Assembly: GCF_009914755.1 (NCBI RefSeq)
Contig: NC_060932.1
DNA length: 64,000 nt
Strand: one strand, 5' to 3'
From: the human T2T-CHM13v2.0 reference genome, Homo sapiens
Made by a program: the position numbers and the translations under genes. Below, in pieces: positions 483 through 28,100 of the stretch. Each line of letters begins with the position of its first letter. Positions within the stretch are counted from its first letter, which is position 1. The notes under the pieces were generated by a model. That model had not been told where the DNA came from, did no database searches, and saw only the letters and a list, made by a program, of their open reading frames with translations.

Positions 483-573
483 ATGCCAAACATCTTTGGC
501 AGACAGCTCCTTCTCTGCTATGCTGTCTGTTGCATCCTTGCAAGGTTAAAAAAAAATATGCCAAACATCTTTG
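483..573 (+). mobile_element. Tiny (~49 nt + A9) retro-insertion with 16-bp TSD; double-hairpin RNA, probably LTR-derived
   Basis: ATGCCAAACATCTTTG at 483-498 and 558-573 flank GCAGACAGCTCCTTCTCTGCTATGCTGTCTGTTGCATCCTTGCAAGGTT followed by A9. Confidence 0.8.
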
Positions 574-2007
574 AAGAAAAATCCCTTAGCAGAGGGGATT
601 CTAAGGTCCTAGGTGGAAAATTCAGTTAGTCCTTTGCTATTATAATGCCAAGCTCCTAGATGATTGCGTCAATTTCTTACTTCTCCAGGACATTGCACTG
701 TGTACTCAGGGTCAAGCCTGGAGCTGGGATCAGGGGGCTGGTATAAGATACCTGTGTGAGATTGGAGCAGTGCAATCTTAGGTAGAAGGAAGAAACATTT
801 TCCCCTCTTTTAGAAAACCTTCCGTTTGTTGTCCTGGCTGCCGGAGGCCATGCTATCCTAACCACATTGTTTAGTGGTGGACCTTTATTTCTGACAGAGG
901 CAAGCACAGTGAGTCCATGTTTCAAAATGTGGAGGGCCCCTCTAAGCCACAGGGAGAATTTGCCAACCTCTACTCTGTTATAAATTGATGCCACAGTGGG
1001 AGTACTGTTTTCCAATTCCCACCTCTTGACTAGAGAACCAATTTAGGAGAAATAGAGGAGCAAGGGCCTTTGTGCCAAGTTCTCAGACCTTCCCAGGGCT
1101 ACCCCCAGGGTGAGCTCAGCCTTTCGTCTAAACACCACACAGATTGGAAGACATGATATGGGGTGAGCGTTTGCTGAACCACCTATCTAGTTAAACAGGG
1201 TTTTTAGCCTCTGATGTTCCAAGTTGGGGCTTGAATGCTTCCAAAATAATAAAACAATATATCACTTCTCAGGATATGCTGGGGGCAGTGATGTCTGAGT
1301 GAATGGAATGAATGAGACAAAATCACCTCCACACTACAGAACACTGGAGTTCACTCTGGGTAGCGCAGCCACACAAGACGCTGCTTACATCAAAATATTT
1401 CACAATATTCCACCCAAATTAAAACAATGGAGACAACTAGACAGTGATATAGCAACTATACATCAACAAAGGACGAGAAAGTTTCTTAACACTGACAGGC
1501 AAATACAGAATAAATAAGTGAAAAATAGGCACTTGAATGTTTTTGCAATTTTTTTTTCAAGCTTAGGGGATTCTTTTGCAGCAGATTTTCTGGGCACCAG
1601 AAAGGGATTACAGGAGATGTAAGAAACAAGTGAAAGACAGAAAGAAGCAGACAGAGCTGGAGGCATAGAAAGCATATTTAATTTTAATTCGAATCTAAAC
1701 ATTTTTATGGAGACTTCAGGGTTTCTGGCTTGGCTGAGTAAGTCGGCTACGAGTTGCAATTGTTTCATATTGTAGAAAGAAGGAAGCGTTTCATGGAATT
1801 GGATTTTCCCCTTTGTTTTTCCTTGCTTCATTGCAAAACGTTAAAATGAAAAAGTTTACTCTGTGGTTTATTCTAAACAAATTCAATTCAGCATCCAGGT
1901 ATTACTGCTCTACCAGCCAACTGAAGTACTTATTTCGAAAAGTGTATTTCTGACTTTAAACACTTAAATCCATTGTGGTTTATCATCATGTCAATGTATA
2001 TTTTGGA

Positions 2008-2181
2008 GCGCGCACAGCTCTGCGAAAGCCTGTGGAAATTCCTTAAAGGAGTCTGTGAAAGGACTCAGCTACAGAGGCGCGGCCCCGTTTGCAGAGAGCG
2101 TGGATCTACATCGCAGACACCTCATGGCATATTCTGAAACTGTCCCTCCTAAAAGGGAGCTGAATTCAGGCCCCAGTGGCG
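2008..2181. promoter_or_regulatory. Small CpG cluster, candidate enhancer or promoter
   Basis: 9 CpGs in ~175 bp of non-repeat DNA; GCGCGC at 2008; NF-kB-like TGGAAATTCC at 2033-2042. Confidence 0.25.
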
Positions 2182-2564
2182 TAAATGTGTCAACCAACCA
2201 AATAAGTTGTTTTTCAGTTAGTACAAACAAAATTCAAGAACCAGCATCTGTATGGGTGAGTGAGCTCACATTCTGAAATAAGAAAAACTTAAATTTGTAC
2301 AATGACTTCAATTACAACTTAATCCAAGTTTTTCTCAGCTGATATCCAATAACAACTTTGTAAAACAAGCCAGATTCTAAAGTCTCTATTTTCACAGTTG
2401 AGGAAAGTTAAGATTAAATATTAATCAGCGATGTCCAGGACCACAATATTCTTCCTAATACAGTAGATGAAGGATCATTTAAATATGCCTGTTTGGTTTT
2501 GTTTTAACTTCAAATCCAGTGCACATCCATTATATAATATAAAGCCTCTCGAAAGTAAATTCAC

Positions 2565-3084
<520 letters not shown>

Positions 3085-3200
3085 TTAGAAATATTGGCAG
3101 GAATTTTTGTTTTGTTGTTTTTAATTATGCTGATTGTCAGTTAAAATTGCACAAGAAAGATTTAAATGAATTAAATGGAACCTCAAGGGGGAAAAATTTT

Positions 3201-3236
3201 TTCCCCATCTAGAATGTTCCCCATCTAGAATGTTCC
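3201..3236. repeat. 16-bp tandem duplication
   Basis: TTCCCCATCTAGAATG x2 + TTCC. Confidence 0.9.
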
Positions 3237-3472
3237 TGGATGCTGAGCACTTTTAGTTTACTCAGAACACTTTTTCAAAAGTCCTTGCGCTATTCAGAGA
3301 AGATGGGTATTTATAATGAGCTCCAGTCAGGAATGGGAACATAACTTCTGCCAAAAACATTTTTCAAAGATATTCCACAGTTAATAATTATAAGTTGCCT
3401 CCCAAATAGAGCAATATTGCTACCATGACTGTTGCTGCTGCTACTACATTAATATTAATGACAACAATTACC

Positions 3473-3757
<285 letters not shown>

Positions 3758-3774
3758 AACAATTACCAATATTT

Positions 3775-3990
3775 TAAAAATGCTTAGTATGCACCAGGCA
3801 CCATGCCATGCACTTTCTGTGGGTACATTGCTTTTCCTTCTCATTTATTCTTCATGACAACTCTCATTCTCATATTACAGGAGAAAAACCTGTGACTTGA
3901 GGTTAAATAATTTGCCCATAGTCACATAAGTAGTATGGGATGGATCCAGGATTTGAACTCAAACAATATAATTCCAGAACCCATGAGTAT
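3775..3990 (-). mobile_element. MIR (second fragment near 4105-4160)
   Basis: MIR core-like GAGGTTAAATAATTTGCCCATAGTCACA...AGGATTTGAACTC. Confidence 0.65.
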
Positions 3991-4233
3991 AAATGTAATG
4001 TGACATTACCTTCCCAGCAGAATTTATAATAAAAGTTGAATTGTATTAATTGTTTATTGTCAAACTGGTTATCAAACTTGTTTTCACAAATAAACTAAAG
4101 GAGATTTGAAGAGGTGAAGTGACTTGCTCAAGTTCACATGGCTAGTAAGTTAGAAAATAGGGATCCATTTAGAATACTTTATCCACAATTCAGTTTTAAT
4201 AATTGTTATATGATATCTTAACTCTATACTTTA

Positions 4234-5668
4234 TTTAAAAAAATTTAGATTTGGGAGTATGTGTGTATGTTTGTTACATAAGTATATTGCAAAAGTGGCT
4301 TCTAGTGTACCCATTACTCAAAAAGGGAACATTGTACCCAATAGGTAATTTTTCAACCCTCAACTTCCTCTCATCCTCCCCACTTTTGGAGTCCCCAGTG
4401 TCTATTATTTCCATCTTTATGCCCATGCCCATTGTTTAGACCCCACTTACAAGTGAAAACATACAGTATTTGACTATTTCTGAGTTACTTCATTTGGGAT
4501 AATGGCCTCCAGCTCCATCCATGTTGCTGTAAAGGACATTATTTCATTCTTTTTTATGGCTGCATAGTATTCCATGATATGTATATACCATATTTTTCTT
4601 TATCCAGCCAACTTTGATAGACACTAAGTAAGGTTGGTTCCATGACTTTGTTATTGTGAATAGTGCTGTGATGAACATATGAGTACAGATGTCTTTTGTA
4701 CAGTGATTTCTTTTCTTTTGGGTAGATACCTGGTAGTGGGATTGCTGGGTTGAATGGTAGTTCTATTTTTAGTTATTTGAAAAATCTCCATACTGTTTTC
4801 CATAAAGGTTGAACTAATTTACATTTCCACCAACAATGTATAAGTATTTCCTTTTCTCTGCATCCATGCCAACATCTGTTGTGTTTTGACTTTTTAATAA
4901 TAGCCATTCTGACTGGTGTAAGATGGTATTTCATTGTGGTTTTAATCTGCATTTCTCTGATGATATTGAGCATTTTTTCATATGATTGTTGGCTGCATGA
5001 ATTTCTTCTCATGAGAAATGTCTGTTCATGTCCTTTGCCTAGCTTTTAATGGAGTCGTTTTTTTCTTGTTGAGTTGTTTAAGTTCCTTGTAGAATCTGGA
5101 TATTAGTCCTTTGTCAGAGGCATAATTTGCAAATATTTTCTTTTTTTTTTTTTGAGATGGAGTCTCACTATGCCACCCAGGCTGGAGGTCAGTGGTGTGA
5201 TGTCGGCTCACTGCAACCTCCTCCTCCCAAGTTCAAGCGATTCTCCTGCCTCAGCCCCCGGAGTAGCTGGGATTATAGGTGCATGCCACCAGGCCCAGCT
5301 AATTTTTGTATTTTTAGTAAATATGGGGTTTCACCATGTTGGCCAGGTTGGTCTCAACCTCCTGACCTCAAGCGATCCACCTGTCTTGGCCTCCCAAAGT
5401 TCTGGGATTTCAGACATGAGCTATCGCACCCAACCTGCAAATATTTTCTCTCATTCTGTAGGTTGTCTGTTTACTCTGTTGATTATTTCTTATGCCGTGC
5501 AGAGTCCTTAATTACGTCCCATTTCTCTATTTTTGTCTTTGTTGCATTTGCTTTTGGGGTCTTCATTATACCTTCTTTGCTTGGGCTAACGTCCAGAAAG
5601 ATTTTCCTAGGTTTTCTTCTAGGATTTTATGATTTCAGGTCTTATGTTTAAGTTTTTAATTAATCTTG
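4234..5668 (-). mobile_element. 5'-truncated older L1 (L1PB/L1MA-like): ORF2 C-terminus + 3' UTR
   Basis: Translates to [24 protein letters not shown] (ORF2 C-terminus); TSD TTAACTCTATA(C/T)TTTA at 4218-4233 and 5669-5684. Confidence 0.88.
5142..5435 (-). mobile_element. AluS nested in L1
   Basis: Reverse Alu; TSD TGCAAATATTTTCT at 5128-5141 and 5436-5449. Confidence 0.93.
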
Positions 5669-6293
5669 TTAACTCTATATTTTAATAAGACATTAATATC
5701 TACTTTTTAAAAACAAAATGAATGTACTTAAACATGATAATTTCTTCTATCTTTCATATTTCTAAGGAATTTTAATTATAATTTTATTTAGTTATAATAT
5801 AATTTTTAGAAATTATCTTCATTTTTACCTATACAAAATTATCCTTTTTTGGGGTCCTCCTCTTTATAAGCTGCTTATTCTGGATAAATCATTCTAGGTT
5901 GAGGGTCTTTTTGTTTTTGTTATTGTTTTGGTACTGTGAAGTTGTTATACAATAGTTTCATAATTTTTCTCTTCTTGTTTAGGAGAAATCTGTCTGTCTA
6001 GCTGTTATTCCTTTATAGGTAGCCTGTATTATTTCTTGGGATATATTTAGACTCTTTTTTTTTGTATTTTGTGTTTTTAGTTTCTTGTTGATTTGTCTAG
6101 GTATGTATTTCTTTAGGCTTCTTGAATTTAAAAATTTGTATCTTACATTAATTTTTAAAAATTAAACTTCATCGTTATCCTTTAACATATTGTGCATCCC
6201 TTATTCAGTCTTTATTTTGCTTCTAGAAATGTAGAAAGTTCTCTATCCTCAAGTGTTTTAACTTCTCATATTTCCCTATTCCTTATGTCTCTG

Positions 6294-6345
6294 AGATGTA
6301 GTCTTGGTATTTCTTCAACAGATGCAGTCTTGGTATTTCTTCAAC
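6294..6345. repeat. 26-bp tandem duplication
   Basis: AGATG(T/C)AGTCTTGGTATTTCTTCAAC x2. Confidence 0.9.
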
Positions 6346-6527
6346 TCTACCTTCCAATTTGCTTTTTTCCTCATCTGTGGCTAATCTGCTTTTTAAATTG
6401 TCCATTTAATTATTACTTGTAATTATTCCACATTTTAACTACTAGAAGTTTTCTTTGATTCTTTGCTTGATATTCTTGCTTATTTCATAATCTCCCATTC
6501 TTTATTCATATGTTTAATCCTGTAGAT

Positions 6528-7036
6528 CAGGGGTCCTCAATCCCTGTGCCACGAACTGGTACCGGTCCGTGGCTTGCTGGAAACTGGGCCACACAGCAGG
6601 ATGTGAGCAGAGGGCGAGTGAGCAAAGCTTCATCTATATTTACAGCTGCTCTCCATCACTTGCATTACTGCCTGAGCTCCATCTCCTGTCAGATCAGAGG
6701 TGGCATTAGAGTCTCATAGGAGTGCTGTGTATGTGAGGGATCTAGGTTGCATGCTCCTTATAAAAATCTAATGGCTGATGATCTGTCACTGTCTCCCATC
6801 ACCCCCAGATGGGACCGTCTGGTTGCAGGTAAACAAGGTCAGGGCTCCCACTGATTCTACATAATGGTGAGTTGTATAATTATTTCATTATATATTATAA
6901 TGTAATAATAATATAAATAAAGTTCACAATAAATATAATGTGCTTGGATCATCCTAAAACCATCCCCTACCCTGGTCCATGGAAAAATTTTCTTTCATGA
7001 AACCGATTCCTGTGCCAAAAAGGTTGGGGATCACTG
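6528..7036 (+). mobile_element. MER1A-like hAT-Charlie DNA transposon
   Basis: CAGGGGTCCTCAA...TTGGGGATCACTG termini; 8-bp TSD CTGTAG(A/G)T; ~510 bp. Confidence 0.88.
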
Positions 7037-9530
7037 CTGTAGGTAGAACATCATGTAGATCTTTAATTTAAATCTATTAATCACACATATATATGTGATT
7101 CCATGTATGAAGTTCCCAGTTTTTAATATTTCTGCAGATCTTATTCTCTTGCCTATTGTTTCATGTGGTTTGCATGCAGTGGTGTCCTGTTCTAGTTTGT
7201 GTTTGGTGGTTTTTGATTATGAATATGTTCTTTAGAACTTTATCTGTAAGACTTCTTTGTAAATACATTTCTCTCGAGAGGATATGCTTTTTAATAATTT
7301 GGGAACATTTAATATGAATTATTGGCTATTAATTTTTAGGGAAACATTGATAGTGGGAACTTGAGAAACACACCTATAAGTGGGCCTATTGCTAATTTTG
7401 CATTTTTTGGAAATTCTTTTTCTTCTCCATCCACCAGAAAGATGAAGAAAAGAACATTTTCTTTATGTGAATAAAACCAACAACAATGAATAGGGATACA
7501 GATTCATACAGTCTGATTCCCAAAAAAGGGGAGTGGAACCCCACGATTTGATCACTTCCCCTTCCTTGAATGATCTCACAAATTAAGTTACAGGTCTCAA
7601 TTCTCTAGAAAAAGGGACTTAGATATTATATCCTCCCAAATCCAAATTTCCTGCTCAGGAATGCTCAAACTTTTGAATTGACAAGGAATCACTTTCGTTT
7701 CATGGGACTGTTATGAATGACAGAAGAGCTTGAGAGACCTGGAAAGGCTGGAGCCACATGTATGGAAGCTTCCCAATGATTATGAAAGGCTTACTGATGG
7801 TGCAGAAGCCTGAGACCACGAGATTCAGAAAATCACATTCTTTTTGTCCTAAGGATGCTTTGGACCTGATTTAAAAAAACCTCATATGGTTTTTGTGAGA
7901 AAATACTGCAAGGGGCTCTGTGACTGATTCTTTTGCTGTCTCTCTGGATCCCAAGGCTTTGAAGAGAGGAGTCTTTACACAGAGCGGGGGGACCTGCAAA
8001 ACCTTAGTTCTCATCTAGCTTTGGCAGGGTAAAGGGATTAGCCAGGTGCTGAAGGTGGCTTACTGCAAGGCTGGCACAGGCCTGATCATGTGCTCATTCT
8101 TCTCCACCACATGGTAAAGTGGAAACTACTATCACCATGTCAGATAGCAAAGGTGATCTTTATTCTTGCCAATAGTTACAATGAAGAAAATTATCTTCCA
8201 TCATGAGAGTACCTCTTAATTCCATCTTGTCTATCTGGGCAAATCTAGAAAAGAGGCATGCTGAATGTCTATAGAAAAGAACTGGCTTTTTAATTTAACA
8301 TATTAGTTTGAATTCAAAACATGTACAAGGTGCTGTGATGCAATGGCTTTCTAACTGTCCAAATTTCCAGAATGCACTCTGGTGGAAATATAGCCCCCAG
8401 AAGAATAAATATGTAGCCTTGTTCTCCTACTACCATTGCAAAAACAGTTGAATGGAATGCTTGTGCCTGAAGAGTTGTCTGAGATTGTATTCACCAGGCA
8501 GTTTAGAGAAGGACGCACATCAGGGAGGCAGGGGATATCCATCTTGGCCCCCATTTCAGCGTGGTGCAATGACTCCAGGACTGCAAAGAATCTCATTGTA
8601 CAAGACCTACCTAAGCTTACAGGCAGTCCCAGAGATGTGAACAAGGATGAAGTGTGTGAATCAATGTCAGAAGTGAAATATGCCCATGACTTCAATAACA
8701 GCACCAGATACCAGCTCATGAATGACTGGTTAGAAGTGTTTTATGGATGAGATGCATGGTGGTGATATACCCAATCAGACATTCAGGAAGTGAGTCTGTT
8801 GTGTCATTTTGTGTGACCTTTGACAAGCCACTTAACTAGTCTGGCCTTTACTTTTCTCAAGTGGGACTTGTTCATCAACCCTTCCTGTCTCACTCTGAAG
8901 TGCTCTGATCTCTATTCTAATCCGTCAAATAGATTCGTAGACCATGCTTTGAGAACCATTGATATAGTAATCTAAAAAACTGACTGTACTTAATTTCCCA
9001 AGCCTTTGAAAGTATAAAGGAAGAAAAGCTTACTCACTGCCAGAATTTGGTTACAGAGGAATTTAATTATAGCATTTGGGCATGTGTCATTTAACCATAG
9101 CTGTTAAGAGTCGTGGTCAACTGTTTTATTAAGTCATTTATCGTCTTCAGCAACTACCAGTCTGTAATTACCTTAATTCTATTCCACCAGTTTGTGTGAA
9201 GGGAGTCCTGTTCTTTTGTCCTCTGCATCCAAACCCTAAAATAAATCATGATCATCATACTTACATTCTGTTGAGTTTAAAAAATTTTCCACTCCTGATT
9301 TTCTGTTATCTGATTTCTACTTTTCCTAGCGTTAGAATAATAGAATCATAATGTTTCAGAACTAAAGGTGATTTTAAAAATTATTTAATCTCACCTCCCT
9401 TTTACTCTATTGAAAATTGAGAACAGGAAAGATTTAAAAATTTAGAAAGGCCTACAGCTGGTTAGTGATGGAGTCATGCTTACTATCAGGTGCCCAACCC
9501 TGCAGGTTATGGAAATGCCTGCAGATTTCC

Positions 9531-9564
9531 ATTTCAGTGAGGCCCACAATTTCAGTGAGGCCCA
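9531..9564. repeat. 18-bp-period tandem duplication
   Basis: ATTTCAGTGAGGCCCA at 9531 and 9549. Confidence 0.85.
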
Positions 9565-10304
9565 GGAGGCTCTAGTTCAACCAGAAGGCAGAACCCAATC
9601 TAATCTGATTTGAGAGATTTGGATATAGCCACCTGATTTATAATGCCCAGGCAGAGAAACACAGTGTACAGTAGAATGTGGGCAGCCAGCTGAAGATGGT
9701 GTGGAAAAGGGGGCATAAAGATAAAGTCAGGGGCACTTGTTAGTTACTCTAGGGATGAGCTACAGTAGAAGTAGTTTAACTGAGATTAAACATTTGGATG
9801 TTTTGCAAATGCTAAAATATTCAGGCAGGCACTTTAGAATGCATTTTGCCCAAATCTCTACTTCTGTTTTTTTAAAAAAATGTGAATGTGTACAACATCA
9901 TTTCAATTTGCTTTACCCAAAAAAGCAAATGACAGAATGTTTTTACTGTGATTCATTCACTCATTAATTCAACGAATGTTTGTTGAGCCCCTACCAAGTG
10001 CCAAGCACGAGGGGCACACATCTGCCGAGATCAGATGGAAAGGGGACAAGAAAAACTGGAGAACCCAAGTCTCCAGTCAAGAGATGATGGAGGCCTGGAG
10101 CAGAGGGTGCAAGAGACACGTGACTTAGAGACAGGGGAAGAAACCTGTAGACAGGTGATACCTGGAGAACAGGGAGGAGGATTATGGGTGATTTCATTTT
10201 TTTTAAAAAATTTTCTAGTTTTTTGTGCACAGTGGTGCTTTGTTAATAAAGTAATAACAGGATTTTGGCCTGGAATGATGATGTTGCTACGATTTTTAAA
10301 ATGG

Positions 10305-11020
10305 ATTATTTTTTGTTTTGAAAGAATTTAAAATTTATAGAAGTGTTGCAAGAATAATGCAAAGGACTTTCAAATACGCTCTGCTCTGATCCACCAGTTG
10401 TTAACATTTTGCTACATTTGCACATTCTTTTTCTTTTTTTCCTCTCCTCCTACACATATAATTATATATTTTTTCTGGACCACTTGAGAGTACATCGCCC
10501 TTTACTCCTAAATACTTGAAGTGTATATTTCCTAGGAACAAGGACACTTGGCTTATGTAACTATGTACAATGATCAAAATCAGGAAGTTTTATGTTGATA
10601 TATTAGTATTGTCTAATATATAGTCTTTATGAGAATTTTGCCAACTGTCTCAGTAATGTCCTGTATAGCAATTTATTTTTCTGGTCAAAGAGCCAGTCCA
10701 GGATCACATATTGCATTTAGTTTTCATGTCTTTTTCATTTCCTTTATTCTGGATCAAGTGATCCATTTTTTTTTTTTTTTTTTTTTTTTGCCTTTCATGT
10801 TTGGCAATTTTGCAGAGTACAGGTCATTTATTTGTAGAATTTCTGTTAATTTGAGTTTATCTGTGATTTCCTCATCATTGGATCTAGGTTTAAATAACCT
10901 GGAGTTATTTAACCTGGAGTTTTTTGGCCATAGTACTATCTAAATGCTGTTGTGTCCTTCCCAGTGCACTGTATCTAGAGGCACATGATGTGGTATGTTA
11001 ATATCACTGATAAAGTTAAT
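10305..11020 (-). mobile_element. Old L1 3' end (L1MC-like)
   Basis: Resembles reverse L1MC 3' UTR (CCAGTTGTTAACATTTTGC...TCCTAGGAACAAGGAC...CACATATTGCATTTAGTT). Confidence 0.6.
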
Positions 11021-11409
11021 TACTGGTGGTACTAATTTTAAGGTAAGACTACATATTTTAAATGGTAGATTCTTTTGTTTTCTTTGGCTCAAAGTAGTGT
11101 CACTGTTAAACAGTGTTTTAAAATTATCTATTTAAATTAATATGGGCTCACATTTACCCCACAGTAAGTTACACATATCTCCAGAGAAAAGGGGTGTGCA
11201 CATAATTGCTATGTCAGGCTAGGTTATTACAATACAAAAGCAGGTTAAGTATAAGTCAATCCTGACATAAGCAGGGATAACTTGTTTTCAGATTCTGGAT
11301 GTGCTTATTTTCTAGGGAGTTATTTGGATGTTTTTCTCATCTGTTGACTAAATCTATGAGCCAAATGTAAGTTGTAGCATTTGGGGATATTATGTACACT
11401 TTCGACCTT

Positions 11410-12266: not shown

Positions 12267-12275
12267 AATATATTC

Positions 12276-16589: not shown

Positions 16590-16617
16590 GTTAGGTTTTT
16601 GTTTTAAGTTAGATATA

Positions 16618-16887: not shown

Positions 16888-17067
16888 TGTATATCCCTTT
16901 AAATCATGTTTACCTTGTTCCTTTCACAGCAAAATTCCTTTGTCACCACACAGTTTTTCTTAGGATTTTCCCAGTAGGAGTTGGATGATATGGTGCAGTT
17001 GGCTTTCTGATGCATGATCCTCCCACAGCAGTGTTTCCAGAAGTATGTTCTATAGAACACTAGTTCC

Positions 17068-17134
17068 ATGGGATATCTCATGGGGCGGGGGGGGGAAGGG
17101 TATGGGATATCTCATGGGGGGGGGGGGGAAGGGT
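17068..17134. repeat. ~34-bp G-rich tandem duplication
   Basis: ATGGGATATCTCAT-G(13-14)-AAGGGT x2. Confidence 0.9.
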
Positions 17135-17174
17135 AAACACATTTGGAAAACAATGGGTTTAAAATGTCAAATTA

Positions 17175-17489
<315 letters not shown>

Positions 17490-17736
17490 TCATATGTTAC
17501 AACATTTATTCAGTTGCCCAATCTAGCAATTTGTGAGTTTATTTATTTTTCTCTTATGTCTGATCCATCTCCAAGTGCTATTGATTCCATCTCTTAAGCA
17601 TTTCTTCATTTGTCCCTTTCTCTCCATCCCTATTCCCCTAAATATCCCTATTTCAGGTTCTGGCTTCCCTTCACATTCAATCTTTTCTATCCTCAAACCC
17701 AAGCTGCCAGAATCCTATGTCGAACATGAAAATCTA

Positions 17737-17891
17737 GGCTGGGCATGATAGTGTGCACCTGTGGTGGCAGCTACTTGGGTGGCTGAGGTGAGAGGATTGC
17801 TTGAGCCCGGGAATTTGAGGCTGCAGTGAGCTATGGTTGTCCACTGCACTCCAGCTTGGGTGACAGAGCAAGACCCTGTGTCTTAAAAAAA
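17737..17891 (+). mobile_element. FRAM (free right Alu monomer)
   Basis: Single right-arm monomer with A tail. Confidence 0.8.
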
Positions 17892-18080
17892 TACGCAGAT
17901 CTAACCTTAGCACTCCCTTACTTTCAACCCATCAATGACTCCTTTCTGGCCAGGGCAGCATTTTCTACCCGGTGATCACTGGGATGTTAGATGTACCACA
18001 GGAAAATTCTGCATGAAACTTTGGATAAACACATTTAGACAGAGTTCTTTACCTTTTGGACTTCTTAACACATGAATGTA

Positions 18081-18165
18081 CATTTTGGCTGCTTTTTTTT
18101 TTTCTGCTCCTCATGGAGCAGAGCTACCCCACAGGCAGTGTGCCCAGAGTAGCCCCATTTTGGCT
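18081..18165 (-). mobile_element. Tiny (~52 nt + A11) retro-insertion with TSD; double-hairpin RNA resembling a MER41-type LTR R region
   Basis: CATTTTGGCT at 18081-18090 and 18156-18165; minus strand reads GGGCTACTCTGGGCACACTGCCTGTGGGGTAGCTCTGCTCCATGAGGAGCAG-A11. Confidence 0.82.
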
Positions 18166-18439
18166 CTTTAAGAGAGGATACCAGATGCAGCATTTCTCAA
18201 ACCCAACTGAACATGCAGAATTCCTTTTTCATGGGGCACTGTGAGGAATTAGCATTTCAATGGAAACTCTTTGAGAAACATTACCTTGTGTATATTGCAA
18301 AGAGTTCCAATTAATGGGGATTCACTCAACTCTATCTCCCCAATGTAAGAATTAGAGTGTCTACTTTGATGTTGCCTACTGTACTTTTCTTGGCTAGATT
18401 GTCTACTTTTTCCTTATTAAGCAGCCTGGACAAGTGCAA

Positions 18440-18665
18440 AACAATATTAGAGGTTTAAGAATCAAAGAGGTTAGCCTTAGAATTTCAACCATTTACTAAA
18501 TGTAAGAACTTGGGTAAGTTTCTTCAGTTTCTTTGAGTCTCTTACTTTATCATTAAATTCAGTGTAAAACCTGCCTCATATGGTTACTTGAGTAAATGAT
18601 ACACCATATAGAAAGTGAAAAGCTGAGTGACTGGCATATAGAAAGTGCTCAATAAATGTCATTTC
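18440..18665 (+). mobile_element. MIR
   Basis: AACTTGGGTAAGTTTCTT...GAAAGTGCTCAATAAATG. Confidence 0.55.
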
Positions 18666-19823
18666 TGCTATGTTTGGACTTTCAGGGGAGATCAGCTTGA
18701 ATGCCACGGAGCCAAAGTCTGTGTGTTTGGCTCAGCCCCTAGGTGAATAATAACTGAGTCTCTGTGTACAAGGAAGGATCTTGACAAAATATCTCATGCA
18801 ACTTAAAGAGAGTATTGTCCATGCTGTGCCCTTAGGAACTAAAGTGTGTTTTAAGTGGCATTCTTTATTTGTCTGTTCAGACTGACAACTCATTTGTCTG
18901 ATCTGGTGATTTCATCTGCTTTCCTGTGTCTACGGCAGTGCCAATCATGCCTTTTTGCCAAAGCCGCCTCCTCGGCATTTGTTAATAATTGCACCTTGTT
19001 TGCATTTTGCATTAAATAATGTGAACACACCTTGTCCTCACTTTGTGTGAAAATGTTTTCCTCGCATTAACAAAACTTTTCCTGAATTTATTAACAAAAC
19101 AAGTGGTAGTTTTGTTTGTTAATAAATAATAGTCTGTACTTTGGAGATGTAGTATTCACTAGCTTTTATTTTTAAATTTTTAATTACAGATATTTAGACA
19201 AAGCACCTTACAAATTTTAAGAAAGATATGAACAAAGTGTGATGTATTTGCAAAGGGCATGAAATATTTATTGAAGAGACCTAAGGTTTTCTTAAACATT
19301 AATGCTTTAAAATAATCTGAAAAAAATACTTAATAAAATATGTGGTGGACAGAGCTAGAAATTAGATAGGGCAACTCCTAGAAACAATTTAAAAATGGGA
19401 AATTTCAGCTTTCACTGCTCTGTTATGCTCCATTTTCTCAGTAGATGGCACCCTTCCCCTACCTTCAGAGCTTTTATTTACACTAAGGTGTAAAGGGCTG
19501 ATAATCCATTACAACAGTTACTAAATCCTCTTTGGGAATTAGCTAATTAATTGTAGCCCTATACAGCACCTACAGTACCTTGCACAAACAATGAAATGCA
19601 TGGGTAAGTCAATATTTCAACTACAGTAAAGAGGTTTACTCCTGCATTTTACTTTAGTGTTTGCAAAATTTGATTCTTCTATCCCTTGATGACTTGCAGC
19701 CACATTCCTAAATATTCTCTTCTTTCCAACATGCTGACTTACTAGATCTCTTACTCTAGGCAGATGACCCATCTACTATTTTATCAAGAAGATCAAGCCT
19801 TCACTTTTTCATTCATTCATTCA

Positions 19824-19875
19824 TTAGGTTGGTGCAAAAGCAATTGCAGTTTTGCTATTAAAAGTAATGGCAGAA
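19824..19875. mobile_element. Truncated MADE1 (mariner MITE) within an L2 tail
   Basis: TTAGGTTGGTGCAAAAGCAATTGCAGTTTTGCTATTAAAAGTAATGGCA; one TIR plus loop only. Confidence 0.85.
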
Positions 19876-20046
19876 TAATAATAATCAGTCAACAATCATT
19901 CAATCAGTACCTACTGTGTGCTAGGCTTTGTTAAGCTCAAAGGATGTAAAGATGCATGAGTTATGGTCTTTGCCTTTAAAGAGCTCTGAACTTGTTTGGA
20001 GGAAACAGAAACATAACTAGTAGACTATTAAGAAGATACCATTCTC

Positions 20047-20344
<298 letters not shown>

Positions 20345-20359
20345 AGAAGATACCGTTCT

Positions 20360-21625
20360 GTCCATAGTCCATAGTTTGCTGAGTTTCTTTGATATTTTAT
20401 TGTAATTAGATACTTTTTCTGCATATATTGAGACAACCATACATCCTTTAAATTTGCTTTCCTAGAAACTTTAAGTTAGTCTTGATTGATTCCTCTTCCT
20501 CTTCCCTTTCCCCTTCCCCTTCCCTTTCCCCTTCCCCTTCCCCTTCCTGCTCCTCCTCCTCCTCCTCCTCCTCTTCTTCTTCTTCTTCCTCTTCCTCTTC
20601 CTCTTCCTCTTCTTCTTCTTCTTCTTCTTCTTCTTCTTCTTCTTCTTCTTCTTCTTCTTTGTATTGCTGGATGCAGTTTGCCATCATTTTATTTAGGATT
20701 TTTGCATCTATGCTAATCAGCAATAATGGCCTATAATTTTCCTTTTTCAGAATGTACTTGTCAGTTTTGTTATAAAAGTTATGTTAACCTCAAGAAATGA
20801 GTTGTGGAATCTTCTTTTCTTTTATATTTCTTAAATGATTAGTCAAACTCACCTGTAAAACCATGTGTGCCTAATGTTTGCTTTATGGGAAAATTTTTAG
20901 CTAGTTTATTTTCCTTAAGGGTTATAGGTACATTTAAGGTTTCCATTTCATCTTGAAGTACTGTTTGGCAGGTTATATTTTCCTAATCGTTTGGCTGTCT
21001 CATCTAAGTTTTCAAGTTTATTGACATAAGGTTGCTCAAAATATTCTCTGAGTAATTTTTAAGTCTTTGCAGGATCTGGCAGTTACATTCCACTTTTTAT
21101 TAGACTTTCTGAATAACCAACTCCTGATATTTTTTATCATCTCAATTTTAGGTTTTCTATTTCTTGAATTTCTGCTCTTATCCTTATAATTTTCTTCCTT
21201 TTGCTGTTTTTATGTTTATTCTATAAATTATTTTCTAACTTGGTAAGTTAGATAATTATCTTATCAATTTTTATTTAATCTCTTTTCTATTATAATTACT
21301 GATGTCTATGCATTTCCATCCAGGACTTTCTTTGGATACATATATAGGTTGCAATCTTTATATTTTAATTAATGTTCCGGTATAGGTAGTTTCCTATTCC
21401 TATTATAATTGTCTTTGACCAGCATATTATTTATAAATATGTTTTGTAATTTTCAAACAAAGTTTACCTTGCAATCTTTTTGTTATTATCTCTAACTTAA
21501 TTACCCTTGGTTTGAGCATATGATTTGTATAAGACCCAGTCTTTTGAAATACATTGAATCTTAAATTTATGGTCTAGCTAGTGGAACATTTTCAGAAATG
21601 TTTCATGATACTCAAAATTAATCTA
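20360..21625 (-). mobile_element. Ancient L1M ORF2 relic (resumes at ~27020-27270)
   Basis: Minus translation [17 protein letters not shown] resembles ORF2 [19 protein letters not shown]. Confidence 0.7.
20490..20660. repeat. Compound polypyrimidine microsatellite (CCCTT[C/T])n-(TCC)n-(TTC)n
   Basis: ~170 bp of pyrimidines with a single G. Confidence 0.97.
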
Positions 21626-22834
21626 TGTTCCCCAGCCTCTAAGGTAAGTCCCAATAATCCCCAACTCTTGTATTCATACCTTTGTGTAATCCCTTCCCCT
21701 TAAGTGTGAGCTGGACTTAGTGACTTACTTCTATGAGTATGAATATGGCAATATGGCAAAACAGCACCTCATTTCAATATTAGCTCATGAATAGACTGAA
21801 GGACTTCTGCTTCTGGCAAGACAACGTGAGGAGCTCTGTAGAGCAACTTCCCAGTGAAATGAATGGAAATTATAATAAAAACTCTAACTAAAGTCTCTAA
21901 AAATGATCCTAAGGATATACTACAACTGAAGAAACATTTATCCAATAAAAATCACTAAAACTTGCTGAGAACAGTGAGAGTCTGTAGCATGTGAAGCATG
22001 ACCCCTCCCACCCCCCGGCATCTGCCCCCCTGCATCTGCCACCTCAGCTCAGCGGATCTCTCTCCAGCCTATAGAGGAGATAAAATAGAGAATGGAAAAT
22101 AGAGACAAACAATGAGACCAAAAATTGAATCTTTGAAACTATCAACAAAATTGACAAACTGTTAGCTGAATTAACCAGGAAGAAAAGAGAGAAACCTCAA
22201 ATAATAAAATCAGAGAGGAAACAGGGGACATTACTACCAACTTTATAGAAATTGAAAGATTTATAAAGAAATGCTATAAACAATTGTATGCCCATAAAGT
22301 AGACAGCTTCATTGAAATGAATATATTCCTAGAAAGACACAAACTACTGAAACTGAATCAAGAAGAAACAGTGAATAGACTTTTAATAAAACTGAATTAG
22401 TAATCAAGAACTCCCATGAAAAAAAGCCCAGGCCCAGATGGCTTTACTGGTGGATTCTAACAAACACTTAAATAAGAATTAATATCAATTATTCACACAT
22501 TCTTCCAAAAAATAGAGGGGAAGAAAGTACTTCCCAATTCATTTTATGGGACCAATATTTCTTGATACCCAAACCAAAAATATCGTAAGAAAAGAAAACT
22601 ATAAACCAGTATCTCTTATGAATACAAATGCAAAAGTACTTAGTAAAATACTAGCAAACTAAATACAGAAACATATAAAAAGAATTACGCACCATGACCA
22701 AGTGGAGTTTATGCCAGAAATGCGTGATTGTTTAAACATGAATATCAGCAAGTGTTGTCCCCTATCAATAGAATAAAAAACAAAAAACCCATATGAGCAT
22801 TTCAATAGAATACTGAAAAGCATGTTACAATATT

Positions 22835-24376
22835 ACAGTATATGACAGCTTTATGTGTGTGCATATGCTCAAATAAAATTTAATGACACAAATCATTTTT
22901 GCTAAATCCAGTCCTTCTCTTTCTCCCCTAGGGCTATCCAGTCTCATCATAGAAGGTAGAATAAGATGGAACCACAGGGCCAGAGTGAGCCTCAACAACA
23001 CATACTTCACATACATGTTCACTTATTGCACCAGGTTTTTCTCAACCCAAAATACTGCTTTAGGTATTAGGCTGCCAAGGGAAGTGAAGGTTTGAGTCTG
23101 AACAGGTTCCAAAATGGATTGTGCAAAACCTCAGGCCTCCCTCCTTCCTCTGGAAGTTCCAACTGTGGAAGAAATGAAGATGGAACTTCTCAAGAATCAA
23201 CAGCTTCTAGCATGAATTCCCTACATATCCCCCAAGTATCCCTTCCCCTTTGGTCATGATTATAACTGGGATAATGATCATGACAGATCCCCTAGGTGTC
23301 TGTCAGAGGTATAGAGTAAGGTAGGTGGACTCGGGATGAGGATAGCTGCAGCTGTGTGGGGCTGAGGTTCTGTGGCATTGAGGTACTGGGGAAGTGGGGC
23401 TCTGTTTTCATTCTGACCTAGAGTCAATAAAGTGCTCTTGGAGGAAGCCAGAGCCCTGACTCTGTACTATAGAGAAAGGGCCAAGTCATTGAGTGCACCA
23501 CTACTTGACCCAGAGGTAGAAAGAATTTACTCTGGAGAGATTTGGTAGAGCTCCAAGAACAAGGAAGTTACATGTGGACAAAAGGAGGAAGAGATATCAA
23601 AATAATGAATAAATTCAAACAAAGCTGGAGGATAAGACCCCAGGACTGAATACGCTCTGAGAAAGGCCTGAGCAGAGGCCCCGAAGGAAGCACGTCAGGG
23701 AAGATACACTCATTATAGCCTAGGAAATTTTCAGTAGTTGGGAAACGAGGGGAGGAAGGCCTGGCTGTATCCCTAATTTCACAGGGTGGGAAAGAGGAAG
23801 ATGACTAGGATACTGCACAAAGGACCCGGCACTGAATTGTGGGAGCTAGAGGTTGCTTGGGGCAAAGTGAAAAGGCTTCTGACTCTTTCAAAAGGTGGCT
23901 GGCCAAGAGCATGATTAGGGACTCCAGTCACGGACATACTAGAGGTCCTTGGGTGCCTTGAGCCCTGAATGGGTCAGCAGCTCTCCATCCTAAAGAGCAA
24001 AGGCAGACATCACTGGACTCTGGAAATCTGTAGCATGTGGACCACAAAGACCCGGCTCCCATGCACCAGAATTGGCACCTCCCGGTAGCATGTGCCACTG
24101 GAGACCACAGTGTCCGCCAGCACCACTGCCCACTCCCAGAAGCGCTCCATATCCAGGGCCACCTTAGTGGGCTCCAGTCCCGTCAAGCCATATTTGACAC
24201 CTGTATCACTTCTGAAGCATGCCAGGGTGCTGTGGGCAACTTTTCCTTCCAGTTTGAAAAGATGCCTCTCCAGGCCTCTGTGGTGGCACCCCAGCCTCCT
24301 CAACTTCCTTTGGCTCCACAGCAACAGCACAAAGAACTGTGTGAAGGACAGTGTTGCCTTGTGGCATAGATGAACC
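22835..24376 (-). pseudogene. SPRYD4: Processed pseudogene of SPRYD4 (CDS relic ~24355-23939 plus ~1.1 kb probable 3' UTR)
   Basis: FKLEGKVAHSTLACFRSDTGVKYGLTGLEPTKVALDMERFWEWAVVLADT and AFAL*DGELLTHSGLKAPKDL* match the recalled SPRYD4 protein; intronless, start codon lost, frameshifts, internal stop, large deletion. Confidence 0.9.
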
Positions 24377-24970
24377 TACAACATTTTATGATAAAATACT
24401 CAATAAACTCCAAAAAGACGGAAATTTTCTTAACCTGATAGAGGGCATCTACAAACATCTCACTGTTAACATTGTACTTAATGGCAAAAGAATAGATAGT
24501 TTCCTCTGAGATTAGGAACAAGACAAGGATGCCCACTCTTACTGCTTCTATTAAGTATTGTACTAAAAGTTCTATCACGGACAATTAGGCAAGAAAATGG
24601 AATAAAAGTCACTAAAAAACCTATCAGAACTAATTTATAAATGAGTTCAGCAAGGTTGCAGTATAGAAGCTCAGCATATAAAAATCGGTTTATTTCTATA
24701 CACTAGCAATGAACAATCTCAAAATGAATTTAAGAAAAAATTTGCAATAGCATAAAAATAAATATTTAAGAACAAAGTTAACAAAAGAGTGCAACACTTG
24801 CACTAGGAAAGCTGCAAAATATTGTAGAAAAGAATTAAACTTCTTTATTTTCTTATAGTTTCTCTATCTCATGTTAACAGGTCAAAAAACTTAATATAGT
24901 TAAGATGGAAATACCTCTCAAGTTGAATTATAGATTCAATGCAATCCCTGTCAGAAACCCACTTGCATCT

Positions 24971-25103
24971 TTTTTTTTTTTTTGTAGAGACGGAGGTCTT
25001 GCTATGTTGCCCAGGCTAGTCTTGAACTCCTGGCCTCAAGTGATCCTCTCACCTCAGTCCCCCGAGTAGCTAGGATTACAGTAGTCCACCACCAATTCTG
25101 GCT
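24971..25103 (-). mobile_element. FLAM monomer nested in L1
   Basis: Left-arm monomer; TSD ACTTGCAT(T)CTTT. Confidence 0.82.
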
Positions 25104-28100
25104 CTTTACTTGCATTCTTTGTGGAAATTGACAAGCTGATACTAAAATCCATATGAAAACTCAAGGGATCCAGAATTGCCAAAACACTTCTAAAAGGTGG
25201 AACAAATTTGGAAGATGCACAATTTCCAATTTCAAAATATACTAAAAAGCTAATCAAGATGATGTGGTAATAATATAAGGATAGACATATCTATTATTGA
25301 AATAATTGGGAATCCAGAAATAAACCCGTGTATTTGTGGTCAATTAATTTTGGACAAGGATGCTAAGACCATACAATGGGGGAAAGAATAGTCATTTCAA
25401 TAAATGTTGTGACAACTGAATATCCAAATGCAAAAAAATGAAGTTGGACCCTTATCTCATACCAAATACAAAAACTAACTCAAAATGGATGAAAGACTTA
25501 AATGTAAGAGCTACTTAAAAGAAAACATAGGAGTAAATCTTTGTGTCCTTGGAGTAGGCAAAGTATTTTTATATATGACATCAAAAACATAAACAACAAA
25601 AGAAAAAATAATTAAACTTCACCAAAATTTAAAAGCTTTTGCATTTCAAAGGACATTATTAATAAAGTGAGAAGACAACTCACAAAATGGGAGAACGTAT
25701 CTGCAAATCATATATCTGATAAGGAACTTCCATTTAGATTATATAGAGAACTTCTTCCTCTTATGGACTAGCTCTGAAAAAAAACTCTTATAATTCAATA
25801 ATAACAAGAAAAATAATAATCCGATTAAAACATGGTAAAGGATCTGAAAAATGTCTATTTTTCCAAAGAAGACTACACAAATGGCCATAGGCATGTGAAA
25901 ACATGTTCAACAGCATTAGTCATCATAAAAATGCAAATAAAAACCACAATGAAATACCACTTCACACCCACTAGGGTAGCTATAATAAAAAAGTCAGATA
26001 ATAAGTGTTGGTTAGGATGTGGAGAAATTGAAACACTAATACATTGTTGATGGAAATGTAAGATGCTACAGCTGCTTTGAAAAACAGTCTGGCATTTCCT
26101 CAAATGATTAAACATAGAGTTACAATTCAACACAGAAATTCTATTATAGCCATATACCCAGATAGAGAAACAATAACGTATGTTCACATAAAAACTTGTA
26201 CCTGAATGTTCATAGCAGCAGTATTCATAATAGCTAAAAAGTGGAAACAATTGAAAGTCCATCAGCTGATGAATGGATAAGCAAAATGTGGAATATTGTG
26301 TAGCCTTAAAAAGAAGTGAAGTGTTGATACATACTACAACATATATGAACCTTAAAAACATTATACTAAGGGAAAGAAGCCAGTCACAAATGACCGTGCA
26401 TTATATGATTCCATTTATATGAAAATGTGCAGAATAGGAAAATCTACAGCGACAGAAAGTAGATTGGTTATTATCTAGGAATGGGGAAGAGGGATGGGCT
26501 AATGGGATGGCAATGAAAGGGTATGTGGGGGATACCTTTCTGGGGTAATGAAAATGTTCTGACATTGATTGTGGTAATTATTGCACAACTCTATGAATAG
26601 TGAATATACTAAAAACCATTAAATGGTACACTTAAATGGGTGACTGGAATGGTATGTGAATTATATATCACTAAAGCTATTACCAAGAAAAGAAAAAAAA
26701 TCTGTGGCTTCCATCTTCGATGCTCTCACTTGTTCTCACCCACTCCCTGCCTTTTTTAGACTGCTTGGTCTGGGGGAAGCAAGCTGCTAGGCTATGAGAG
26801 GCCCACATGGTGAGAAAACGAAGTCTCTGGCCTACCAACGTTCTAACAACCCTGTGAATGAGCAGATCCTCCCCAGTTGAGCCTTCAGATGAAATTACCC
26901 AAAAAGTTAAGTTGCTTCTGGATTCTTGAGCCATAGAAACTGTGAGATAAGAAATGTCTGTTATTTTAAGCTGCTAAATTTGGGGATAATTTGTTACACG
27001 GCAATACATAATTAATGTACCACTTGTTCGTTGCAATGCTTTAGAAACAACCAGTAGATTAAGCTTATTTATTTTTTCTTCAGGACTACTGATTACTACT
27101 CATTAATTTTTTTTCCTTAAGGAATTAATTATTGAATGGGGTGTGTTAAATCTCTTATGATTATAAATTTGTATATTGCTCCTTTTAGTTCTGTTACTTA
27201 TAACTTTGTTTATTACTATATTATTAGCTTTACCTATTTTGAGAATACATTATTAAGTAAATACAAGGATTAGCCTATCAATTTCTCCATTTACTCTATG
27301 GTTTCCCAGTGGTATAGTTCATGTTGAAAATGCAGGAGAAACTATTGATTCTTTCTCTTTCTGAACTAGTTTTCAAGATAATAATTTCTTCTATATCATT
27401 CCTCTAAGGAAAACACATTTGTTCAAAACAGTGTTATCATGAACTCATGGATTTAAACTATTGATGAATTATTAATTGATAAATTATTGATGAATTTGAG
27501 CTTTTTAAAGCTTAATCTGGCCAGTGGGAGCCTCTTCAAGTTGTCTCCCAAGTCCTTTGACACAACTCTAGCAGTCTTTAATAAATAGCTTCCCTGCTAT
27601 CTGGTATGATAACTTTTCCAGGCACATCTTGTGTATTTCATATTCCAGTCTTGCAATCAGCTCCAAGAAACCCTTGTTTCCTTTAGTAACTAGGTGAATG
27701 GTATTTTAAGACCACATAAGACCACCTTCTGGGGACTTGGGATATTCATTGCTACTGGGCTACTTTTTCTAGGCCTCACACACACATTCAAATAGGACTA
27801 GAAAATATTTCTAGAAATTTCTTCTTATATCTGCATGTCCTTTCTTCACACTCAGAATCCTGGTTCTAACGGACACAGAAGATTATAGAATTGAAATGAT
27901 AATTACTCATACTTTTCAAATCACACATCACACACATAAGTTTTAGAATAATAATAATATTACCAATCTCAATATATCTACTGACAAGAGTGAATATTTT
28001 TGGTATATGCTGTTCCCATTTCCCCTTATTTTTATAATTATACAATATCTAAATTGAGCAAACAGACATTACAAACCAGACTTTTTCCCTTTTAACTCCT

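What the first reader, a model, noticed from the sequence alone, without database searches (positions are those of the whole stretch)
483..25790. Candidate class: L1-retroposed ~50-nt TAR-like short transcripts from ERV LTR promoters
Two unrelated inserts (499-557 plus strand; 18091-18155 minus strand) share one architecture: start with G, about 50 nt, long 5' hairpin directly followed by a short hairpin, A tail without a poly(A) signal, and a TSD. A weaker third case lies at ~25757. Established: Pol II promoter-proximal paused or terminated RNAs are tens of nt long, HIV TAR is such a 5' LTR hairpin, and L1 mobilises A-tailed small RNAs. Inference: these are fossils of prematurely terminated, oligoadenylated germline LTR transcripts, i.e. 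a mini-SINE-like family recording attenuation in ancient ERV1 LTRs. Two in 18 kb would imply many genome-wide. I cannot confirm that this is undescribed.
Basis: inference. Interest (0 to 1): 0.82.

Follow-up and report, generated by a model that had tools for sequence, protein, structure and literature searches.

The report
L1-copied short LTR leader RNAs
Two roughly 50-base inserts are DNA copies, made by the LINE-1 machinery, of short capped RNAs that began at the start site of old retroviral LTR promoters and ended just after two hairpins; one belongs to a family of over a hundred such copies in the human genome.

Summary
Sites 1 (499-547 +) and 2 (18153-18104 -) are real. Each is about 50 nt, folds into two hairpins, has an A tail with no poly(A) signal, and is flanked by a 16- or 10-bp target-site duplication. 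Site 3 (~25757) is not supported.

Both inserts match the first ~50 nt downstream of the TATA-predicted start site of two unrelated LTR families.

Family F2 (site 2):
- A junction pattern (hairpin 2 plus A run) finds 113 genome matches against 205 for the LTR-context junction; reversed-pattern controls find 0.
- In an unbiased sample of 72 loci, 16 are retrocopies ending at +50 to +52, 1 ends at +63, and 55 are LTRs.
- 25 of 29 retrocopies begin exactly at +1.
- 18 of those 25 carry an extra G where the LTR has T. This is the known signature of a reverse-transcribed cap.
- Target-site duplications are enriched: 12 of 29 against 5% in controls.

Family F1 (site 1) has one sibling with the same ends.

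LTR origin, start at the transcription start site and L1 retroposition are supported. Premature termination with oligoadenylation remains an inference. "ERV1" was not verified, and "TAR-like" is positional only. I found no description in eight open-literature searches. The likely status is a new variant of small-RNA retropseudogenes.

The parts
483..498 (+). Site 1: upstream copy of the 16-bp target-site duplication
   Evidence: Exact repeat of 558-573
499..547 (+). Site 1: 49-nt retrocopy of the first ~48 nt of the R region of LTR family F1 (hairpin 1, then hairpin 2)
   Evidence: 86-93% identical to LTR copies, where it lies 32 nt after the first T of a TATAAAA box. Fold z -2.83.
548..557 (+). 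Site 1: A9 tail plus one T. No poly(A) signal upstream within the insert.
   Evidence: LTR copies read on here with non-A-rich sequence and have AATAAA at about +65.
558..573 (+). Site 1: downstream copy of the target-site duplication
18156..18165 (-). Site 2: upstream (in element orientation) copy of the 10-bp target-site duplication AGCCAAAATG
18154..18155 (-). Site 2: two G not templated by the LTR, which has T at -1. Probably read from the cap.
18104..18153 (-). Site 2: positions +1 to +50 of the R region of LTR family F2 (hairpin 1 of about 31 nt, hairpin 2 of 18 nt)
   Evidence: Fold z -3.87.
18091..18103 (-). Site 2: A11 tail followed by GC
18081..18090 (-). Site 2: downstream copy of the target-site duplication

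Best explanation
Each insert is an L1-made retrocopy of a short capped RNA polymerase II transcript. The transcript began at the start site of an LTR promoter and ended about 50 nt later, one to three bases past the foot of a second hairpin. That is about 20-30 nt before the LTR's own AATAAA.

The short RNA carried, or acquired, a 3' A tract that no poly(A) signal specifies. L1 ORF2p then used it in trans for target-primed reverse transcription in the germline. This left an A tail and a target-site duplication.

For LTR family F2 this happened more than a hundred times, from several LTR subfamilies. For family F1 it happened at least twice.

Shown:
- The LTR origin.
- The fixed 5' end at the predicted start site, with extra G.
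- The fixed 3' end.
- The L1 hallmarks and the copy numbers.

Inferred:
- The RNA was a promoter-proximal termination product, or a 3'-trimmed product stabilised by its hairpins.
- Its A tract came from post-transcriptional oligoadenylation.
For: Origin:
- In natural LTR copies the F2 sequence follows an intact TATAA at -32 in 24 of 55 copies, and 32 of 55 have TATAA within -40 to -25.
- The first AATAAA lies at +80 to +84 in 20 of the 27 F2 copies that keep one.
- F1 has a TATA-like box at -31 and AATAAA at +65 to +69.

Census:
- The core pattern gives 448 genome matches against 0 in the control.
- All 73 zero-mismatch matches fall in 72 loci. Of these, 16 are retrocopies ending at +50 to +52, 1 ends at +63, and 55 are in LTR context.
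- The retrocopy junction pattern gives 113 matches. The LTR junction pattern gives 205. Controls give 0.

5' ends:
- 25 of 29 retrocopies start at +1, 3 at +2 and 1 at +3.
- G sits at -1 in 18 of 25 retrocopies, against 2 of 44 LTR copies; 39 of those 44 have T (Fisher p = 4e-9).

3' ends:
- 28 of 29 alignments end at +50 to +52.
- 0 of 55 LTR copies are A-rich at +51 to +62.
- Neither window insert contains a poly(A)-signal hexamer.

L1 hallmarks:
- Duplication score of 9 or more in 12 of 29 copies, against 5.3% of 552 mismatched flank pairings (p = 1e-8).
- Median A-rich tail is 17 nt.
- Clear duplications mostly begin A-rich after a T or other base (for example TT|AAAT, TC|AAGA, TT|ATTA).

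Structure:
- 29 of 29 retrocopies fold as two top-level hairpins, mean z -3.8.

Several sources:
- The GGGT and GAGT variants of hairpin 1 occur in 24 of 100 listed retrocopies and in 14 of 100 listed LTR junctions (hand counts).

F1:
- The second copy (L127) begins at the same G and ends within 1-2 nt of the same place, before an A/GAAA-rich tract.

Precedent:
- Integrator-dependent prematurely terminated RNAs are capped, share the gene's start site, have defined lengths of 50-110 nt and are 3' oligoadenylated. This was shown in Drosophila (PMC6824465, passages seen).
Against: - No RNA data were available. The start site is predicted only from TATA spacing, the pyrimidine-purine step at -1/+1 and the extra G.
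- How the 3' end and the A tract arose is not shown. Trimming of longer RNAs back to the hairpin, or template switching by the L1 enzyme, would leave the same DNA.
- F1 has only two copies, and the second one's duplication could not be assessed.
- Only two LTR families were examined, so the breadth of the class is unproven.
- 238 kb of other held sequence yielded no further LTR-derived case.
- Target-site duplications scored 9 or more in only 12 of 29 old copies. Eight scored 0 with my simple detector.
Confidence: 0.7

Rival explanations
1. The short LTR RNA had no A tail. L1 reverse transcriptase began on the poly(A) of an L1 or Alu RNA and switched template onto the 3' end of the short RNA. 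This is the route proposed for U6-L1 chimeras, so the A tract would be borrowed.
For: - Small RNAs without a poly(A) signal are known to be captured this way (PMC4476161 and PMC13174262, abstracts seen in listings).
- The tails here have no signal to explain them.
Against: - None of the 29 retrocopies examined shows a piece of L1 or Alu 3' sequence between the element and the A tract.
- The Alus next to three copies (L020, L040, L063) are full-length later insertions into the tail.
- This route still needs the same short, start-site-anchored RNA with its end at +50 to +52. It therefore changes only the origin of the tail.
Confidence: 0.2
2. The RNA is a deliberately made, stable small RNA of the LTR rather than an abortive by-product. 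For example, it could be a capped hairpin RNA released by a processing enzyme, with a function for the virus or the host.
For: - Both ends are very sharp, and the fold is strong (mean z -3.8).
- There is about one retrocopy per two to three LTR copies.
- T at +52 occurs in 34 of 100 listed retrocopies against 3 of 100 LTR junctions (hand counts; Fisher p = 7e-9). This hints at a specific 3' end modification.
Against: - No Rfam family matches either insert or the parent LTRs over R, even at E up to 10.
- Hairpin 1 has about 15 base pairs. From recall, that is too short for a standard microRNA precursor.
- No conservation test was possible, because copies decay neutrally after insertion.
Confidence: 0.15
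3. The inserts are ordinary 5'-truncated or internally primed retrocopies of long LTR-driven or proviral transcripts.
For: Severe 5' truncation is common in L1-mediated copies. Short pseudogenes derived from mRNA 3' ends are known (PMC2831318, passages seen).
Against: - Truncation gives scattered 5' ends. Here 25 of 29 start at +1, and 18 of those 25 carry extra G.
- The 3' end lies about 30 nt upstream of the AATAAA.
- 0 of 55 LTR copies offer an A-rich priming site there.
- No copy running from +1 to the LTR's own poly(A) site with a tail was seen among the 72 sampled loci.
Confidence: 0.03
4. Chance: unrelated hairpin-forming sequence next to A runs and fortuitous direct repeats.
For: Short direct repeats near A runs do occur by chance. 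About 5% of mismatched flank pairings score 9 or more.
Against: - Exact 16- and 10-bp duplications abut the inserts.
- There are 113 sibling junctions, against 0 for the reversed pattern.
Confidence: 0.01

Closest known systems
HERV-W processed pseudogenes (L1-mobilised proviral transcripts)
   Same: An LTR-initiated Pol II RNA starting at R is copied by L1, with an A tail and target-site duplication.
   Different: - HERV-W copies are kilobases long and end at the 3' LTR's regular poly(A) site. Those here are about 50 nt and end before any signal.
- A review abstract calls HERV-W the sole HERV group specifically mobilised by L1 (PMC5537654, abstract in listing). F2 would be a further, different case.
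Retropseudogenes of small RNAs (U6, snoRNA retroposons; Y RNA from recall)
   Same: Short structured RNAs without a poly(A) signal are found as A-tailed, duplication-flanked copies (PMC4476161 and PMC1687206, abstracts in listings).
   Different: Those sources are dedicated small-RNA genes or intron-processed RNAs. Here the source is the first 50 nt of a Pol II promoter transcript, with a cap signature.
Prematurely terminated promoter-proximal RNAs (Integrator attenuation; HIV-1 short TAR transcripts from recall)
   Same: Capped, with the same start site as the full transcript, defined length of tens of nt, 3' oligoadenylation (PMC6824465, passages), and a hairpin at +1 as in TAR.
   Different: Those are known as RNAs in living cells. 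Here only DNA fossils are seen. There is no evidence for a Tat-like activator or for the enzymes involved.
Short pseudogenes derived from mRNAs (Terai et al., PMC2831318)
   Same: Retrocopies of 300 bp or less, detected by A tract plus duplications.
   Different: That screen required homology to the mRNA 3' UTR, so it finds 5'-truncated 3' ends (passages seen). The copies here are 5'-complete and 3'-short.
SINEs and SVA (SINE-R)
   Same: Short, multi-copy, L1-dependent. SVA also carries LTR-derived sequence.
   Different: The retrocopies leave the LTR's TATA box behind, so each copy must come from an LTR rather than from another copy. I recognised no internal promoter by eye. They are not composite elements.

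Membership tests
L1-mediated (target-primed) retrocopy | 3' A-rich tail directly after the copied RNA | tested here: met
   A9 and A11 in the window. Median A-rich tail is 17 nt in 29 F2 copies.
L1-mediated (target-primed) retrocopy | Target-site duplication of roughly 7-20 bp abutting both ends | tested here: met
   16 and 10 bp exact in the window. 12 of 29 F2 copies score 9 or more, against 5.3% of 552 control pairings.
L1-mediated (target-primed) retrocopy | Insertion at A-rich endonuclease sites (TT|AAAA-like) | tested here: inconclusive
   Many clear duplications start A-rich. The two window sites (AG|AGCC, GA|ATGC) are poor matches. No formal test was made.
Capped Pol II transcript as template | Untemplated G at the 5' junction of full-length copies | tested here: met
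   18 of 25 against 2 of 44 in LTR context. Interpretation taken from PMC3287187.
LTR R-region leader starting at the transcription start site | 5' end about 30 nt downstream of the TATA box, at a pyrimidine-purine step | tested here: met
   G at 32-33 nt from the first T of the TATA, with T at -1, in both families. The start site itself was not measured.
HIV TAR-type element | Stable hairpin beginning at +1 | tested here: met
HIV TAR-type element | Bulge and loop bound by a viral transactivator and P-TEFb | not testable with these tools
   No transactivator gene is known or was found. No Pfam hits in flanking ORFs.
SINE | Own (internal) promoter, so that copies can give rise to copies | tested here: inconclusive
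   Copies begin at +1 and so lack the LTR's TATA. I saw no Pol III box or T-run terminator by eye, but made no formal promoter scan. LTR copies carrying the same variants exist, which fits LTRs as the sources.
ERV1 (class I) LTR | 4-bp flanking repeat of proviruses and gamma-type gag/pol inside | tested here: inconclusive
   One F1 provirus (L119/L104) has a 5-bp flank repeat at 4 of 5 matches. 29 flanking ORFs gave no Pfam hit. F2's LTR ends were not resolved.

The most novel reading that the evidence does not exclude
Promoter-proximal short capped RNAs of LTR promoters are a general, so far unlisted class of template for L1. Their retrocopies would then be a fossil record, tens of millions of years deep, of where polymerase II stopped on ancient retroviral leaders. 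Many LTR families would contribute, with hundreds to thousands of copies now filed as tiny LTR fragments. The excess of T just before the tail would record a 3' end modification of those RNAs.

A rough argument for breadth is that two such copies from unrelated families lie 18 kb apart. With about 110-250 F2 copies and 2 known F1 copies, that would be very unlikely unless many other families contribute. This is an inference, and it depends on how the window was chosen.
Probability: 0.35. Interest if true: 0.8.

Novelty: new variant of a known kind. Interest (0 to 1): 0.68.

Why it matters
- It adds a new kind of source RNA to what L1 is known to mobilise: the first 50 nt of a Pol II promoter transcript.
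- It shows that an LTR family other than HERV-W was copied by L1 over a hundred times.
- The fixed ends give base-precise predictions that can be checked against short-capped-RNA and nascent-RNA data: start site, stop at +50 to +52, and the extra T.
- If general, these copies give an evolutionary read-out of transcription attenuation on retroviral leaders.
- They would also explain many orphan 35-70 bp LTR hits in repeat annotation.

Tried and rejected
- **Site 3.** The fold is no better than shuffles. It is unique in the genome by a DNA search and by a pattern search with up to 3 mismatches. Rejected as a member.
- **Known RNA families.** Rfam at E up to 10 over 1-27000, and at E up to 1 over four parent-LTR loci, gave nothing at the inserts or over R.
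- **Naming or classing the LTRs.** 29 flanking ORFs gave no Pfam hit. The F2 LTR borders were not resolved by pairwise alignment.
- **Single master locus.** Rejected, because LTR copies with the GGGT and GAGT variants exist in numbers.
- **Internal priming on an A-rich stretch.** Rejected: 0 of 55 LTR copies are A-rich there.
- **Pol III origin.** Considered because of the TATA and the octamer upstream. Set aside because of the extra-G signature and because I saw no T-run terminator when reading the copies. No formal test was made.
- **Further cases elsewhere.** In 238 kb of other held loci I found only F2 centres, Alu pieces and one unknown 44-nt insert (L106:492), which is unique in the genome.
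- **Covariation tests of the stems.** Not attempted. Copies decay neutrally, and the sample was selected by a pattern inside hairpin 1.
Full report
**1. What is in the window**

Site 1 is a 49-nt insert at 499-547 on the plus strand. It is followed by A9 and one T (548-557). An exact 16-bp duplication brackets it at 483-498 and 558-573.

Site 2 lies on the minus strand.
- Positions +1 to +50 run from 18153 down to 18104.
- Two extra G precede it at 18155-18154.
- A11 plus GC follow at 18103-18091.
- An exact 10-bp duplication lies at 18165-18156 and 18090-18081.

Both inserts start with G. Neither contains any of 13 poly(A)-signal hexamers. Each folds into a long 5' hairpin followed at once by a short one, with z -2.83 and -3.87; 0 of 200 shuffles fold as well. 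The two are unrelated in sequence.

A blind scan of all 64 kb for short A-tailed inserts with an exact duplication of 9 bp or more returned only these two and a truncated Alu at 55910-55974.

The third case near 25757 fails. Its fold is no better than shuffles (61 of 200 fold as well). It sits in sequence that I read, from recall, as an old L1 ORF2 remnant. It is also unique in the genome.

**2. Where the inserts come from**

Whole-genome searches show that each insert matches the inside of a repeated element with the layout of an LTR.

Site 1 (family F1):
- Nine other matches at 86-93% identity all lie in such elements.
- A pattern search gives 72 matches against 0 for the reversed control.
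- In natural copies the insert's first G lies 32 nt after the first T of a TATAAAA box.
- AATAAA follows at +65 to +69.

Site 2 (family F2):
- The parent LTR has TATAAATA, with the insert's +1 G 33 nt after its first T and T at -1.
- The first AATAAA lies at +80 to +84 in 20 of the 27 copies that keep the hexamer.
- TATAA is intact at -32 in 24 of 55 copies.

So both inserts are the first ~50 nt of the predicted R region. They stop 20-30 nt short of the LTR's own poly(A) signal.

**3. Family F2 is large**

A 23-place core pattern with up to 2 mismatches matches 448 places, against 0 for the control. I examined every one of the 73 zero-mismatch matches, which fall in 72 loci:
- 16 are free-standing copies that end at +50 to +52 in an A tract.
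- 1 ends at +63 (L039).
- 55 are in LTR context. This count includes four rearranged or truncated LTRs (L058, L079, L082, L086).

A pattern spanning hairpin 2 plus an A run matches 113 places. The equivalent pattern reading on into the LTR matches 205. Both controls give 0. A few of the 3-mismatch rows may be LTRs. More diverged copies are missed.

**4. The ends are fixed**

I analysed 29 retrocopies: the 16 unbiased ones plus 13, whose query included the tail.

5' ends:
- 25 begin at +1, 3 at +2 and 1 at +3.
- Of the 25 beginning at +1, 18 have G at -1, in runs of one to three.
- Among LTR copies, -1 is T in 39 of 44 and G in 2 of 44 (Fisher p = 4e-9).

3' ends:
- 28 of 29 alignments stop at +50 to +52 (one ran a base further, to +53, in the longer-reference alignment).
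- The 29th (L075) stops early through mismatches, but reads the same by eye.
- The end lies one or two bases past the foot of hairpin 2.

None of 55 LTR copies is A-rich at +51 to +62, so the tails are not encoded.

**5. L1 hallmarks**
- My simple detector scores a duplication of 9 or more in 12 of 29 copies, against 5.3% of 552 mismatched flank pairings (p = 1e-8). Eight copies score 0, as expected for some old, decayed sites.
- The median A-rich tail is 17 nt.
- Clear duplications mostly begin A-rich.
- The flanks are independent. The only similarities between them are shared Alus.
- One locus (L076) has a full copy inserted into the tail of an earlier, 5'-truncated copy.

**6. Sources**

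Retrocopies carry the same hairpin-1 variants (GGGG, GGGT, GAGT) as sets of LTR copies. The T variants occur in 24 of 100 listed retrocopies and in 14 of 100 listed LTR junctions (hand counts). The latter figure comes from a pattern that favoured the T variants.

Several LTR lineages therefore produced copies, not one odd locus. Because copies start at +1, they lack the TATA box and should not propagate themselves.

No copy running from +1 to the LTR's regular poly(A) site with a tail was seen among the 72 loci. This suggests that the +50 species, not a full R transcript, was what L1 met.

**7. Family F1**

Among the 30 loci fetched:
- 27 were displayed, and only the window's copy is a short A-tailed one.
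- Two (L120, L126) have non-LTR sequence upstream of about +1 and run on past the AATAAA. They stay unresolved.

A junction pattern then found one sibling on another chromosome (L127). It starts at the same G and ends within 1-2 nt of the same place, before an A/GAAA-rich tract. It lies inside sequence that I read, from recall, as L1. Its duplication could not be assessed in the 221 bases held.

**8. Mechanism**

Shown: the templates were short RNAs with the 5' end at the predicted LTR start site, a cap signature, a 3' end just after the second hairpin, and an A tract. L1-type integration copied them.

Inferred: the RNAs arose by promoter-proximal termination or cleavage, or by trimming back to the hairpin, and were oligoadenylated.

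The inference has a direct precedent. Integrator-dependent attenuated RNAs are capped, share the start site, have defined lengths of 50-110 nt and are 3' oligoadenylated. This was shown in Drosophila (PMC6824465, passages).

Template switching from another RNA's poly(A) would leave the same DNA. None of the 29 copies carries L1 or Alu 3' sequence before the tail.

One unexplained detail concerns position +52. T there precedes the tail in 34 of 100 listed retrocopies, against 3 of 100 LTR junctions (hand counts; Fisher p = 7e-9). The window's F1 copy likewise has T where LTR copies have A.

**9. Comparison with what is known**

The copies work like small-RNA retropseudogenes and like HERV-W processed pseudogenes. 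They differ from both in their template.
- Short mRNA pseudogenes are 3' UTR ends (PMC2831318, passages).
- A review abstract calls HERV-W the only HERV group specifically mobilised by L1 (PMC5537654, listing).
- The Repbase overview of human repeats has no passage on such copies among those I searched (PMC5753468).
- The L1-chimera survey does not mention LTR or ERV templates.
- LTR R regions are known to keep stem-loops and to be poor in A (PMC3601003, passages).

Eight searches found no description. Subscription journals and repeat-database notes were not searchable, so prior description cannot be excluded.

"TAR-like" is justified only by position and shape. "ERV1" is unverified.

**10. 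Verdict**

The LTR-leader and L1 parts of the interpretation stand. The attenuation part is plausible but untested. The breadth of the class rests on two families.

Noticed in passing
Lists; window 547: The base just before the A tail (+52 of F2) is T in 34 of 100 listed retrocopies, against 3 of 100 listed LTR junctions (hand counts). The window's F1 copy also has T where LTR copies have A. This may be an untemplated U added before the A tract.
   Followed up: partly
F2 LTR loci, e.g. L027, L073, L091, about -60 to -50 from +1: 29 of 55 F2 LTR copies keep an intact octamer ATTTGCAT about 20 nt upstream of the TATA box. From recall, this is a POU-factor site, which would fit activity in early embryo or germline cells.
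   Followed up: partly
L076 (G000 C12, near 49246700): A full F2 retrocopy sits in the A-rich tail of an earlier, 5'-truncated F2 copy that holds only hairpin 2.
   Followed up: partly
L039 (G000 C4, near 24886270): One F2 retrocopy starts at +1 but ends at +63 before an A-rich tract. It is the only alternative 3' end among the 72 sampled loci.
   Followed up: no
L079 and L120: An F2 copy (L079) and an F1 copy (L120) have, just upstream of +1, an inverted piece of their own hairpin region instead of U3. This may be 5' inversion during L1-type insertion of longer LTR transcripts.
   Followed up: no
L070, L071, L081, L087 (F2); L107, L108, L120, L126 (F1): Recurrent secondary insertions hit the same spots of the LTRs. 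In F2, A runs (Alu tails) abut -40 or -28. In F1, antisense Alus abut the T-rich stretch after the AATAAA.
   Followed up: no
window 55910-55974: The last ~65 nt of an Alu with an A tail and an 11-bp duplication. It is an ordinary, severely 5'-truncated Alu copy.
   Followed up: yes
L106:492-535: An unknown 44-nt insert with A15 and a 9-bp duplication. It is unique in the genome and no source was found.
   Followed up: partly
L119:2347-2419: The internal region of an F1 provirus matches Rfam mir-4428 below threshold (59.4 bits; gathering score 90).
   Followed up: no
L049 (G000 C2, near 121571500): An F2 LTR copy carries a 26-nt tandem duplication inside hairpin 1.
   Followed up: no
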